DNA of 64,000 bases. Source: a virus (Duplodnaviria; Caudoviricetes). The stretch covers positions 128,001-192,000 of the IMG/VR virus record IMGVR_UViG_3300021399_000099, one strand, 5' to 3'. A program made the translations under genes and the position numbers. This document shows, piece after piece, positions 34,051 to 36,146 of the stretch (the stretch's first letter is position 1; every line of letters starts with the position of its first letter). The notes under the pieces were generated by a model. That model was not told the DNA's origin, made no database searches, and worked only from the letters and a program-made list of their open reading frames with translations.

Positions 34051-34434
34051 ATGTAAAAAAATTAAAGTTTAAAATTATATTATGGCATATGCAATAATCG
34101 TGCCAAACTTACTCACCCAGCCAATTTTTTAGGTCAGTAATGTCGTCTATACAGTCAAGTCTATCGTTAGTGTATGCCCAGATAAGCCTGATGGTATTTT
34201 TATCTTCATCAGCTGTATAATCTATAATGGATAATGGTTCCTGTTTAAACCTCATTATATGTACCAATGGGGTTTTCGCCCGCTTTTCACACAAGCCAAC
34301 CAGGAAACCGAATTCTTCCAAAAGTATTTCGACTTCTTCTCTACACATAACGTAATCCTTTTTACATAATATAATACAAAAACTGTGCCAAAAAACAAAA
34401 ATGACAGCAAAAAGTGAAAAATTTGCTGTCATTT

Positions 34435-34507
34435 GTGCCAGATACAGGATTCGAACCCGCATATCAACGTTTTAGGGACGCCCGCTTTACCAATCAGCTA
34501 ATCTGGC
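34435..34507 (-). tRNA. putative amber suppressor tRNA (anticodon CUA)
   Basis: full cloverleaf; anticodon arm GGCGT-CCCTAAA-ACGTT; C33 also seen in this phage's Gly(UCC) and Arg(CCU) tRNAs. Confidence 0.7.
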
Positions 34508-34541
34508 AGTTAAAAAGGGAGGAACCATGTCCTCCCAAGTA

Positions 34542-34829
34542 TTATTCAACCGGTCTTAATGTCTGAAACATCAGCCCCGTATTCTCTTCCAACGCTATCG
34601 CCGTAACCGTTCCGTTCATATCTGGCTCACGGAAAGCGGAATATTTAATCCCTCGTTCTTCTAGCATCTCCATCCACTTGTCTGTGTCGGCATAAAGATA
34701 GATGAGGTAATTGTTATTCCAAGTCTGGTTCGGGTTATCAATCAACCACTGAGCAACAGCGTGACCGGCTTGCACACAACCGTAAATCGGGCTAAGTCTC
34801 TTATTCACCAACACATACAACCTCTTCAT
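34542..34829 (-). CDS. peptidyl-tRNA hydrolase Pth2-like protein
   Basis: LYVLV...VQAGHAVA...F.EPD...TAIA. Confidence 0.7.
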   Translation of the reverse strand: MKRLYVLVNKRLSPIYGCVQAGHAVAQWLIDNPNQTWNNNYLIYLYADTDKWMEMLEERGIKYSAFREPDMNGTVTAIALEENTGLMFQTLRPVE

Positions 34830-35286
34830 AGTTTTCCACGGAGACTGTTCTGTATTCTCCTCCCCACGCGTCTTTTCTTGTTTCATAATTCTTAAACTCA
34901 TAACCGTATTCCTGAAGTATGCAATTGATTTGACTCAGATATTGACAGAGAGGGTGCTTTCCATTCAATTCTTCACATGTTGTATAGCGTTGCCCATGTA
35001 TTCCGTTAGGATAAGCCCAGTATCTGCTTTTGTCATAAATGAGGAGCTTGGCGTTCTTTTCGGTGACGTCAAAACTCTTTCCCCTGAGCAAATTGTAGGC
35101 AGCATACCTGATTCTAAGTCTTTCCTTAATGTCTTTGACTGCATCTACTGCCTTCCAAGCGGGCATTGTCCTCTCACCGGTAAAATACACGGTTTTTCTC
35201 TGAGGTTTGATTGATTTCTGTTCTTTTTCAAGTTCGGCAATATCTTTACGCATAGCCGAGATAGCGTTTTTAAGATTTGTTTCCAT
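34801..35286 (-). CDS. hypothetical protein
   Basis: 161 aa; LR..YAAYNLLRG; start codon lies in a predicted hairpin. Confidence 0.7.
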   Translation of the reverse strand: METNLKNAISAMRKDIAELEKEQKSIKPQRKTVYFTGERTMPAWKAVDAVKDIKERLRIRYAAYNLLRGKSFDVTEKNAKLLIYDKSRYWAYPNGIHGQRYTTCEELNGKHPLCQYLSQINCILQEYGYEFKNYETRKDAWGGEYRTVSVENYEEVVCVGE

Positions 35287-35586
35287 AATATTCGTTGTTT
35301 TTAAAATTATTTAATTAGTTTATTTTGCTTCAGAAACATTAGTTTATTTTGCTAAACTGCTTAAAAACAACGATTTATGGAGGCGCGTTAATTAAAACCT
35401 AGTATGTCATAGCTTTACGCATAGCCGAGATAGCGTTTTTAAGATTTTCTTCCATAATATTTGTTGTTTTTAAAATTATTTAATTAGTTTATTTTGCTTC
35501 AGAAACATTAGTTTATTTTGCTAAACTGCTTAAAAACAACGATTTATGGAGGCGCGTTAATTAAAACCTAGTATGTCATAGCTTTA
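35244..35586 (-). repeat. 169-bp tandem duplication containing amber-interrupted leader uORF
   Basis: two copies offset by 169 nt with two substitutions. Confidence 0.9.
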
Positions 35587-35865
35587 TATATTTTATTCAT
35601 TACTAAAGTACAACTTTTTTGGCAAGAAAACAAGGTTTATTGCCGGAAATGTGTAACTTTTTTATAAAAACCTCAAAATAGATTACTCCACTTTGAGGTG
35701 AAACTATACAAGAAAGTATAGCGGGAAAAATAAAGTAGGTTCGGGCGTCTTCCTTCGCTTTCAGACATTCAGTATAGCCAGCGTTCTGCGACGTCTGTCA
35801 GGGCTTAACTAACCTATTATCATCCTTCCTTTTAACCCACAAGAACAACGTGTGGGCCTACTTTG

Positions 35866-36061: not shown

Positions 36062-36146
36062 AGCCAAAGATAGGAATTGAACCTATGTAACAACGGCGTT
36101 CTAATTAAAGAAGTTGCAGATAACCAACATACTGCGTTACTCTGGC
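36062..36146 (-). pseudogene. degenerate tRNA-like RNA
   Basis: acceptor and T-arm intact; D and anticodon arms non-standard. Confidence 0.5.

What the first reader, a model, noticed from the sequence alone, without database searches (positions are those of the whole stretch)
35244..35586. Duplicated amber read-through translational switch upstream of the Pth2-like/suppressor-tRNA unit
Seen on the minus strand: uORF ATG ACA TAC TAG GTT TTA ATT AAC GCG CCT CCA TAA (M-T-Y-amber-VLINAPP-stop) at 35579-35544 and again at 35410-35375. Its end (TCCATAA-A-TCGTTGTTTTTAA) pairs with TTAAAAACAACGA-ATA-TTATGGA, burying the downstream ATG. Only a ribosome that reads through the amber reaches the 5' arm. 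The ATG freed by copy 1 (35455) runs in frame into the amber of copy 2, which frees the real gene at 35286, so the two sensors are in series. Inference: a riboregulator that senses UAG read-through or RF1 status and controls a hypothetical protein and a peptidyl-tRNA hydrolase, beside a CUA tRNA.
Basis: partly seen in the sequence, partly recalled or inferred. Interest (0 to 1): 0.88.

Follow-up and report, generated by a model that had tools for sequence, protein, structure and literature searches.

The report
Amber-codon-gated leader switch, tandemly duplicated
A large rumen or gut phage carries a short leader gene that most likely lets the next two genes be translated only when the UAG stop codon is read through by the phage's own suppressor tRNA. 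I found no published natural switch of this kind, and the duplication in this genome is a recent extra.

Summary
A 169-nt unit occurs twice in tandem (165/169 identical). Each copy holds the uORF M-T-Y-UAG-V-L-I-N-A-P-P-stop, whose end starts a helix that buries the next ATG.

The core interpretation is strongly supported by comparison, though no experiment exists. I retrieved homologues of the downstream 161-aa protein by protein alone. 56 of 57 loci with enough upstream DNA keep such a leader (44 distinct leaders, protein identity down to about 30%).
- ATG, UAG and a final Pro-stop always share one frame, although lengths differ.
- Substitutions after the UAG are mostly synonymous.
- The helix covaries.
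- An amber-suppressor tRNA(CUA) follows the operon in 41 of 44 relatives.

The genome itself uses TAG as a normal stop.

Most likely mechanism: read-through places a slowly terminating ribosome on Pro-Pro-stop. That melts the helix and switches on the unknown protein and a Pth2-fold hydrolase.

The "two sensors in series" reading is weak. Relatives have one copy, uORF2 has its own ATG, and the duplication occurs only in this strain and one other.

Earlier reports of this scan describe the same design in at least six other phage genomes. Seven literature searches found only a synthetic analogue.

The parts
35605..35633 (-). Promoter-like site upstream of leader copy 1 and outside the repeat: TTGTTT, 17 nt, TACTTT
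   Evidence: Read. Relatives have TTGTTT-N17-TATAAT/TATTAT at the same place before their single leader. The consensus scan did not list it. Inference.
35409..35577 (-). Repeat unit 1: leader copy 1 plus a 46-nt remnant of the gene's 5' end
   Evidence: Identical to copy 1 of L001.
35544..35579 (-). uORF1: M-T-Y-UAG-V-L-I-N-A-P-P-stop, with TAG at 35570-35568
35530..35550 (-). 5' arm of hairpin 1, starting in the last Pro codon and the stop of uORF1
35451..35473 (-). 3' arm of hairpin 1. It buries the decoy ATG at 35455-35453 and has one mismatch in the stem.
35240..35408 (-). Repeat unit 2: the leader copy that corresponds to the single leader of relatives, plus the real 5' end of the gene
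35375..35410 (-). uORF2: M-T-Y-UAG-V-L-I-N-A-P-P-stop, with TAG at 35401-35399
   Evidence: Homologous uORFs in 56 of 57 loci.
35361..35381 (-). 5' arm of hairpin 2 (TCCATAA.TCGTTGTTTTTAA)
35305..35360 (-). A-rich, mostly unpaired loop with two copies of GCAAAATAAACTAAT. Possible ribosome standby region (inference).
   Evidence: The AAACTAAT motifs are conserved in related leaders.
35282..35304 (-). 3' arm of hairpin 2, burying the start codon of the 161-aa gene (ATG 35286-35284)
34801..35286 (-). Gene for P0001: 161 aa, no known family. The model shows an N-terminal helical hairpin and a small alpha/beta domain.
34542..34829 (-). Gene for a 95-aa protein with a Pth2-like fold. It overlaps the end of P0001 by 29 nt, so translational coupling is likely.
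34517..34536 (-). GC-rich stem-loop followed by a T-run, 9 nt before the tRNA. A stem-loop at this place is conserved with different sequences in all clades.
34435..34507 (-). tRNA with anticodon CUA (amber suppressor)
   Evidence: (Rfam tRNA, 55 bits). The same position is kept in relatives.
34396..34437 (-). Inverted repeat followed by a T-run just after the tRNA. Likely the terminator of the unit.
   Evidence: (I2).

Best explanation
The leader is a translational switch gated by amber read-through.

The unit is one transcript: promoter, leader, P0001, Pth2-like protein, stem-loop, tRNA(CUA).

1. Ribosomes start on the short uORF.
2. If RF1 terminates them at the UAG (codon 4), they stop at least 11 nt short of a long-range helix. 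That helix pairs the uORF's last Pro codon, its stop and the next 10-15 nt with the start region of P0001. The gene stays off.
3. If the phage's suppressor tRNA decodes the UAG, the ribosome runs on to Pro-Pro-stop. Termination there is expected to be slow.
4. The ribosome then sits on the 5' arm. The start codon, next to an A-rich unpaired loop, becomes free, and P0001 is translated. The overlapping Pth2-like gene follows by coupling.

Output therefore reports the balance between suppression and RF1 termination.

What is shown: the anatomy, its conservation, the coding signature through the UAG, helix covariation, and synteny with tRNA(CUA).

What is inferred: read-through by this tRNA, pausing at Pro-Pro-stop, activation rather than repression, and the purpose of the switch. 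The purpose may be to induce helper proteins only when suppression is active, or to regulate suppression by feedback.

The tandem duplication is a recent, strain-level addition. Copy 2 is the conserved working unit. Copy 1 gates only a gene remnant that feeds ribosomes into uORF2.
For: Retrieval was by the downstream protein only, so it is unbiased for the leader.
- 56 of 57 loci with at least 150 nt upstream have an ATG..TAG..Pro-stop uORF.
- They give 44 distinct leaders, 37 distinct uORF sequences and 24 peptides.
- ATG-to-TAG is 6, 9, 12 or 21 nt. TAG-to-stop is 18-33 nt. All are multiples of 3. TAG is never replaced by a sense codon or another stop.

Coding signature after the TAG:
- 274 of 703 differing codon pairs are synonymous in frame. 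In the two other frames the figures are 34/769 and 39/771.
- Minimal substitutions by codon position are 14, 18 and 30.

Pro-Pro-stop is present in 34 of 37 distinct uORFs. The rest have Ala-Pro-stop or Gly-Pro-stop. It is kept even where the pairing register or partner differs, for example a Shine-Dalgarno sequence instead of the AUG.

Helix:
- The start region is paired to the leader in 44/44 minimum-energy folds.
- The 5' arm starts -9 to +4 nt from the uORF stop.
- The gap from TAG to the arm is never below 11 nt.
- Cognate arm pairs average -16.4 kcal/mol against -9.1 for non-cognate pairs. 0 of 20,000 permutations did as well.

Synteny and context:
- tRNA(CUA) lies just downstream in 41 of 44 scanned relatives, including the most distant clades.
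- The second protein has a Pth2 fold.
- The genome is not TAG-recoded, so UAG read-through is a special event rather than routine decoding.

From the literature:
- A C-terminal Pro-Pro interferes with termination in E. coli (PMC3834316; PMC6412442).
- A synthetic leader with an inserted UAG works as a switch (PMC6412442 citing Liu et al. 2011).
Against: - There is no experimental evidence of any kind. The only RNA evidence is one metatranscriptome contig over 34901-35352, which may be DNA carry-over and shows no ends.
- The amino acid carried by the tRNA, and its efficiency, are unknown. Its anticodon loop has C at position 33, where U is expected, so it may be a weak suppressor.
- Pausing at Pro-Pro-stop is known from E. 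coli, not from the likely Bacteroidota-type host.
- The window's motif is N-A-P-P. It lacks the Arg that RAPP-type arrest requires.
- Part of the conservation of CCR-TAA is explained by pairing with UUAUGG.
- Leaders are related by descent, so counts overstate independence.
- One homologue (L042) lacks the uORF.
- The function of P0001 is unknown, so the purpose of the switch is a guess.
Confidence: 0.72

Rival explanations
1. The two leader copies form a designed two-step cascade. Read-through in uORF1 frees the decoy ATG. Its ribosomes must read through the second UAG to free the real gene. This would give a steeper, squared dependence on suppression.
For: - The decoy ORF is in frame with uORF2's TAG.
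- The duplication is real, and it is kept in two strains.
- In the fold of the whole region, the 5' arm of copy 1 can also pair with the 3' arm of copy 2, so uORF1 could act on the real ATG directly.
Against: - All other relatives have a single leader, including one with the same upstream context in an independent study.
- uORF2 has its own ATG in an identical context, so the second step does not depend on the first.
- Hairpin 1 carries a mismatch and is no more stable than shuffled sequence (z = -0.9).
- An in-frame junction has a one-in-three chance of arising by accident.
- Copy 2 of the window looks like a recent conversion product of an L001-like arrangement.
Confidence: 0.15
2. The uORF ends at the UAG. 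M-T-Y-stop is a three-codon mini-ORF and the hairpin is a constitutive damper of translation. Conservation downstream of the UAG would then reflect RNA structure or a protein-binding site, not translation.
For: - TAG is a normal stop in this genome, ending 85 of 347 long ORFs.
- The block ATGACAYACTAGGTTTTAAT is nearly invariant at nucleotide level among close relatives.
- Part of the Pro-stop region is constrained by pairing.
Against: - ATG, TAG and the final stop stay in one frame through four ATG-TAG lengths and six TAG-stop lengths.
- The excess of synonymous differences appears only in that frame.
- Changes such as ATT to GTA and GCN to GTN are conservative at the amino-acid level.
- Pro-Pro-stop is kept where the pairing register changes.
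- In distant clades only the TAG itself is shared, not its context.
- The linkage to tRNA(CUA) would be unexplained.
Confidence: 0.08
3. The sensor acts mainly on RNA synthesis or stability rather than on P0001 protein. Translating P0001 and the Pth2-like gene after read-through would protect the long transcript from Rho or RNases. More of the tRNA(CUA) encoded at its 3' end would then be made. This would be a positive feedback loop that commits the cell to suppression.
For: - The tRNA lies only about 35 nt after the last ORF in most relatives. It follows a conserved stem-loop and there is no room for its own promoter, so it is probably co-transcribed.
- A synthetic UAG-gated tna leader works through Rho.
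Against: - The helix buries the start codon and is not followed by a U-run, so it is not a terminator.
- P0001 is conserved with the leader even where the Pth2-like gene is absent. This points to P0001's protein as the regulated output.
- Rho dependence cannot be tested here.
- This rival is compatible with the main explanation rather than exclusive of it.
Confidence: 0.12
4. The duplication is an assembly artefact.
For: Short-read assemblers can mis-handle 169-nt repeats. Logan's contigs break at the repeat.
Against: - The repeat unit's contig has twice the depth of both flanks, 41 against 21.
- L001, from another assembly, carries the duplication with copies 87% alike, which cannot be a collapse or expansion error.
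Confidence: 0.04

Closest known systems
Leader-peptide translational attenuation (ermCL-ermC, cat and cmlA leaders; SecM-secA, MifM-yidC2)
   Same: A short translated leader whose ribosome, when held at a defined place, melts a helix that sequesters the start region of the next gene.
   Different: The gate is not a drug or a secretion defect. It is whether an in-frame UAG is decoded. The pause site lies at Pro-Pro-stop. The start codon itself, not a Shine-Dalgarno sequence, is buried in this clade.
RAPP/RGPP-type arrest peptides (ApdA, ApdP, ApcA, SecM RAGP; PMC10951233, PMC12992588)
   Same: A small uORF ending in x-Pro-Pro close to its stop, upstream of a regulated gene. Some relatives here end in RVPP, RAP-stop or RGP-stop.
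   Different: The window's peptide ends in N-A-P-P, without the Arg reported as irreplaceable. It has no signal sequence and is only 11 codons long. Arrest is untested.
C-terminal Pro-Pro termination pausing (YbeL-PP model, E. coli; PMC3834316)
   Same: Pro-Pro immediately before the stop codon, which interferes with peptide release.
   Different: In E. coli this is a quality-control problem leading to tmRNA tagging. Here it would be used as a timing device, and the host is different.
prfB (RF2) autoregulation by an in-frame UGA
   Same: An early in-frame stop codon is used as a sensor of termination efficiency.
   Different: prfB uses a +1 frameshift inside the regulated gene itself and senses RF2. 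Here the event is in-frame read-through in a separate uORF. It senses suppressor against RF1, and the product is not a release factor.
Synthetic UAG-gated tna leader (Liu, Qi, Yanofsky and Arkin 2011, as described in PMC6412442)
   Same: [quoted passage not shown]
   Different: That system is man-made, acts on Rho-dependent transcription and senses an unnatural amino acid. This one is natural, translational, and linked to the phage's own tRNA.
Stop-codon recoding in phages (code 15; Borges et al. preprint 10.1101/2021.08.26.457843)
   Same: A phage-encoded suppressor tRNA next to code-change genes, with the idea that suppression times gene expression.
   Different: This genome is not recoded. 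The only conserved in-frame TAG found is in the leader. That paper does not describe a leader.

Membership tests
Leader-peptide translational attenuation | A short uORF that is actually translated | tested here: met
   Frame conservation through indels, and 39% synonymous differences in frame against 4-5% out of frame. This is evolutionary evidence, not direct.
Leader-peptide translational attenuation | A helix that sequesters the downstream start region, with its 5' arm at or under the end of the uORF | tested here: met
   44/44 leaders. The arm starts -9 to +4 nt from the uORF stop. Cognate arm pairs are far more stable than non-cognate pairs, with 0 of 20,000 permutations as good.
Leader-peptide translational attenuation | Signal-dependent ribosome pausing in the leader that raises downstream translation | not testable with these tools
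   Needs toeprinting, reporters or ribosome profiling.
RAPP/RxPP arrest peptides | Arg three residues before the second Pro (R-A/G-P-P) | tested here: not met
   The window has N-A-P-P. Close relatives have N-A/V-P-P. Only some distant relatives have RVPP, RAP-stop or RGP-stop. Arg is reported as irreplaceable (PMC12992588).
RAPP/RxPP arrest peptides | Pro-Pro at the arrest site near the C-terminus of a small uORF | tested here: met
   34 of 37 distinct uORFs end in Pro-Pro-stop.
prfB-type stop-codon autoregulation | An in-frame stop bypassed by a +1 frameshift, with an upstream Shine-Dalgarno-like stimulator | tested here: not met
   The coding signature continues in frame 0 after the TAG, not in +1. 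The genome uses hardly any Shine-Dalgarno sequences, at 8% of starts.
Pth2 peptidyl-tRNA hydrolase (second gene) | Pth2 fold | tested here: met
   The model (pLDDT 84) matches 2zv3, 1q7s, 3erj, 1xty, 1rlk and 1wn2 with probability 1.0 and TM 0.58-0.74 by the model.
Pth2 peptidyl-tRNA hydrolase (second gene) | Sequence membership (Pfam PTH2 or PDB profile match) and catalytic residues | tested here: inconclusive
   No Pfam hit at E <= 0.1. No PDB hit with a 10-sequence profile. PHROG 3668 'hydrolase' matches at 1e-9. Catalytic residues were not examined.
TAG-recoded (code 15) phage | Many genes with in-frame TAG, so that ORFs lengthen when TAG is read as sense | tested here: not met
   TAG ends 85 of 347 long ORFs. 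Reading TAG as sense gains no more ORF coverage than reading TGA as sense. Coding-like in-frame extensions follow 9/77 TAG stops and 19/195 TAA stops.
TAG-recoded (code 15) phage | Phage-encoded tRNA(CUA) | tested here: met

The most novel reading that the evidence does not exclude
This is a natural sensor of the state of the genetic code. A widespread phage module (leader, P0001, usually a Pth2-like protein, and tRNA-CUA) measures, on the ribosome, whether UAG is being read as sense or as stop. It uses that reading to control proteins dedicated to managing suppression. It could act as a feedback or commitment circuit, and it could represent the regulatory step before full stop-codon recoding evolves.
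Probability: 0.55. Interest if true: 0.9.

Novelty: new variant of a known kind. Interest (0 to 1): 0.8.

Why it matters
Suppressor tRNAs are common in phages that still use the standard code, and their role there is unexplained. This module gives such a tRNA a conserved natural target, the UAG of its own operon's leader, and a plausible control logic.

If confirmed, it would be the first natural riboregulator whose input is stop-codon read-through by a cognate suppressor. It would sit beside prfB autoregulation as a second way in which cells or viruses measure termination.

It would also:
- make the early steps of code reassignment in phages testable;
- point to P0001, a protein of unknown fold conserved with the tRNA, as a factor of suppression biology;
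- offer a compact, evolved part for synthetic circuits based on amber suppression.

Tried and rejected
- **Close relatives in curated collections.** blastn and tblastn against the phage collection found nothing. Three scans of IMG/VR also found nothing: one protein-pattern scan and two DNA-motif scans. All relatives came from metagenome assemblies.
- **Rfam.** No family matches the leader.
- **P0001 function.** There was no Pfam or PHROG hit. Foldseek against the PDB gave no match with E <= 0.001. VIA-align matched only the generic helical hairpin, with Z <= 5.5. The ESM Atlas gave nothing by features and TM <= 0.33 by the query by shape.
- **TAG recoding.** Five TAG-bridged ORFs from the window gave no Pfam hit. 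The extension statistics show no excess after TAG.
- **Apparent TGA read-through.** Nine TGA-terminated ORFs had coding-like in-frame extensions lacking an ATG. They proved to be antisense shadows of genes on the other strand, whose frame scores as high or higher. I rejected this.
- **RNAalifold on a MAFFT alignment of 25 leaders.** It recovered only the invariant outer helix, because indels misalign the inner arms. I used a cognate against non-cognate duplex test instead.
- **Identity of the tRNA.** It has no close paralogue among the phage's tRNAs, so the amino acid stays unknown.
- **RNA evidence.** One metatranscriptome contig covers 34901-35352, but contigs show neither ends nor strand.
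- **Complex prediction.** I did not run P0001 with RF1 or with the Pth2-like protein, because I do not claim binding.
- **Alternative readings rejected.** An intrinsic-terminator reading of the leader hairpin fails because no U-run follows it. A DNA or RNA motif reading of the TAG fails because the context differs between clades.

Full report
**Setting.** The window is bases 128001-192000 of a single 216,910-bp contig.
- It carries 47 tRNA genes and a tmRNA on the minus strand.
- GC content is about 41%.
- Only 8% of gene starts have a Shine-Dalgarno-like motif. Upstream regions are A-rich. That pattern fits a Bacteroidota-type host, which is my inference from memory of that group's initiation signals.
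- Runs holding the sequence come from rumen and animal-gut metagenomes.
- TAG ends 85 of 347 long ORFs. Reading TAG as sense does not lengthen ORFs more than reading TGA as sense does. Coding-like in-frame extensions are no more frequent after TAG (9/77) than after TAA (19/195).

So this is a standard-code phage that nevertheless carries a tRNA with anticodon CUA, at 34435-34507.

**Observation.**
- A 169-nt unit is repeated in tandem, at 35240-35408 and 35409-35577, with 165/169 identical positions.
- Each unit holds the uORF ATG ACA TAC TAG GTT TTA ATT AAC GCG CCT CCA TAA.
- The last Pro codon, the stop and the next 14 nt pair with the sequence just upstream of and including the next ATG.
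- For copy 2 that ATG is the start of a 161-aa ORF, P0001 (35286-34801).
- For copy 1 it is the start of a 46-nt remnant of that ORF. The remnant runs in frame into uORF2.

The motif occurs nowhere else in the genome. A generic ATG..TAG..Pro-stop pattern precedes only this one of 396 ORFs.

**Is the duplication real?**
- In the best-holding DNA run, the contig of the repeat unit has depth 41 against 21 and 20.6 for the flanks.
- An independent assembly, L001, has a downstream protein 98% identical and carries the same duplication. Its copy 1 is identical to the window's copy 1. Its copy 2 is only 87% like copy 1 and resembles the single leader of L002.
- The window's copy 2 equals copy 1 over its first 115 nt and matches L001's copy 2 at the sites where the two window copies differ in the last 54 nt. 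It therefore looks like a conversion product.
- A relative in another study has a single leader in the same upstream context.

The duplication is real, young and restricted to this lineage.

**Comparative test of the leader.** P0001 has 91 homologues in the protein collection. I fetched their loci by protein identity and by a protein-pattern scan of metagenome contigs. Neither method looks at the leader.
- 56 of 57 loci with at least 150 nt of upstream sequence carry an ATG..TAG..Pro-stop uORF at the same place. The exception, L042, has lost the uORF region.
- The 44 distinct leaders give 37 distinct uORF sequences and 24 peptides. Examples are MTH*VLINAPP, MTH*IKLIPP, MVH*VYFPP, MTH*ILSLNPP, MRH*VEVKRVPP, MKHL*IDKFKPP, MKKISNY*VDSLASIPP and MK*VRRIRAP.
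- ATG-to-TAG is 6, 9, 12 or 21 nt. TAG-to-stop is 18, 21, 24, 27, 30 or 33 nt. All three landmarks always share one frame.
- TAG is never replaced.
- After the TAG, 274 of 703 differing codon pairs are synonymous in that frame, against 34/769 and 39/771 in the shifted frames. Third positions carry the most substitutions: 30, against 14 and 18 for the first and second positions.

This is the signature of a peptide translated through the UAG.

**The helix.**
- In all 44 leaders the minimum-energy fold pairs the start region of the P0001 homologue (-12 to +5) with a leader segment. That segment begins -9 to +4 nt from the uORF stop, with a median of -4.
- In 36 of 44 leaders, at least two bases of the AUG are paired there, against 14% of shuffled controls.
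- The inner helix differs between clades but stays complementary. Examples are GUUGUUUUUAA/UUAAAAACAAC, GUUGUUAUUCA/UGAAUAACAAC, GCUGUUAUU/AAUAACAGC and AUUUUCAAUUUU/AAAAUUGAAAAU.
- Cognate arm pairs average -16.4 kcal/mol and non-cognate pairs -9.1. None of 20,000 permutations did as well.
- In one distant clade the 5' arm CCUCCUUAA pairs with a Shine-Dalgarno-like UUAAGGA instead of the AUG, yet Pro-Pro-stop is kept.
- The gap between the TAG and the first paired base is never under 11 nt and has a median of 17. A ribosome terminating at the UAG would therefore leave the helix intact. One with the uORF stop in its A site would cover the arm. The ribosome reach figures come from my own knowledge.

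**The module.**
- A tRNA(CUA) lies directly downstream of the unit in 41 of 44 scanned relatives, including the clades with only about 30% protein identity.
- The second gene (34829-34542, 95 aa) overlaps P0001 by 29 nt. It has a confident Pth2-like model: probability 1.0 against 2zv3, 1q7s, 3erj and 1xty. Sequence profiles do not reach Pth2.
- The tRNA starts about 35 nt after the last ORF. A stem-loop precedes it, and that stem-loop is present with different sequences in all clades. Co-transcription and RNase P release are therefore likely, which is an inference.
- P0001 gives a confident model (pLDDT 92) with no informative structural match.

**Mechanism.** The best-supported reading is a translational switch gated by amber read-through.
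- Termination at UAG leaves the start codon buried.
- Decoding of the UAG by the suppressor takes the ribosome to Pro-Pro-stop.
- A C-terminal Pro-Pro is known to interfere with termination in E. coli (PMC3834316; PMC6412442).
- The paused ribosome melts the 5' arm and frees the start codon beside an A-rich unpaired loop.

The direction (activation), the pause and the identity of the decoding tRNA are inferred. The purpose is open. The switch may induce a Pth2-like enzyme and its partner only when read-through is creating extra load on ribosome rescue. It may instead give negative or positive feedback on suppression.

**The cascade.** Relatives manage with one leader, and uORF2 has its own ATG. 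Hairpin 1 carries a mismatch and is no better than shuffled sequence (z = -0.9). The in-frame junction is a one-in-three accident. The whole region can also fold so that arm 1 pairs with the real start, so copy 1 may add some input. A designed two-step series is not supported.

**Known relatives and novelty.**
- The architecture is that of leader-peptide translational attenuation and of arrest-peptide uORFs.
- The window's N-A-P-P lacks the Arg that defines RAPP-type arrest, so it is not a member of that family.
- It is not a prfB-type frameshift, because the coding signature stays in frame 0.
- Seven literature searches and a reading of the main paper on phage recoding found no natural example.
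- The nearest thing is a synthetic tna leader with an inserted UAG.
- Earlier reports of this same scan describe the same design in at least six other phage genomes. I reached my reading before seeing them. They are AI notes and do not count as evidence.

**Verdict.** The core interpretation is supported by strong comparative evidence. The cascade interpretation is weak. No experiment exists.

Noticed in passing
window 34517-34536 (minus strand); the same place in L002-L063: A stem-loop sits 3-9 nt before the 5' end of the tRNA(CUA) in nearly all clades. Its sequence differs between clades but stays complementary. Only the window's clade has a T-run after it. It may protect the 3' end of the mRNA after RNase P cleavage, or it may be an attenuator.
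   Followed up: partly
window 34435-34507: The anticodon loop of the tRNA(CUA) reads C-C-CUA-A-A. Position 33 is therefore C, where U is normal. Most relatives share this, while some (L020, L049, L056) have U. The 3' trailer ACAAA is conserved and CCA is not encoded. No paralogue among the phage's tRNAs reveals which amino acid it carries.
   Followed up: partly
window 35305-35360 and 35474-35529: Each leader loop holds two copies of GCAAAATAAACTAAT, 26 nt apart. Relatives keep two AAACTAAT motifs, and L023 and L035 have three. Copy number therefore varies by about 24-nt steps.
   Followed up: no
L042 (metagenome contig), upstream of 1175: This is the only P0001 homologue without the amber uORF. 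The 3' arm and part of the 5' arm remain, but the uORF region has been replaced by other sequence.
   Followed up: no
L017:6354-6443: This relative has the amber leader but no tRNA(CUA) within 3 kb downstream. ARAGORN instead calls a tRNA with anticodon UUA (ochre-type) 2.9 kb downstream.
   Followed up: no
window 34901-35352: A 452-nt contig from a metatranscriptome of the same study covers the 5' part of P0001 and the 3' half of leader copy 2, with three base differences. It is a weak hint of transcription in a related strain.
   Followed up: partly
genome C1, for example 64677, 67079, 193656, 194154: Several TGA-terminated ORFs are followed by long in-frame, coding-like stretches without an ATG. 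They are antisense shadows of genes on the other strand, not TGA recoding.
   Followed up: yes
window 36062-36146: A sub-threshold tRNA-like match (Rfam tRNA, 25.5 bits, gathering score 29) lies between tRNA-Thr and the leader's promoter, in the ORF-poor stretch upstream of the unit.
   Followed up: no
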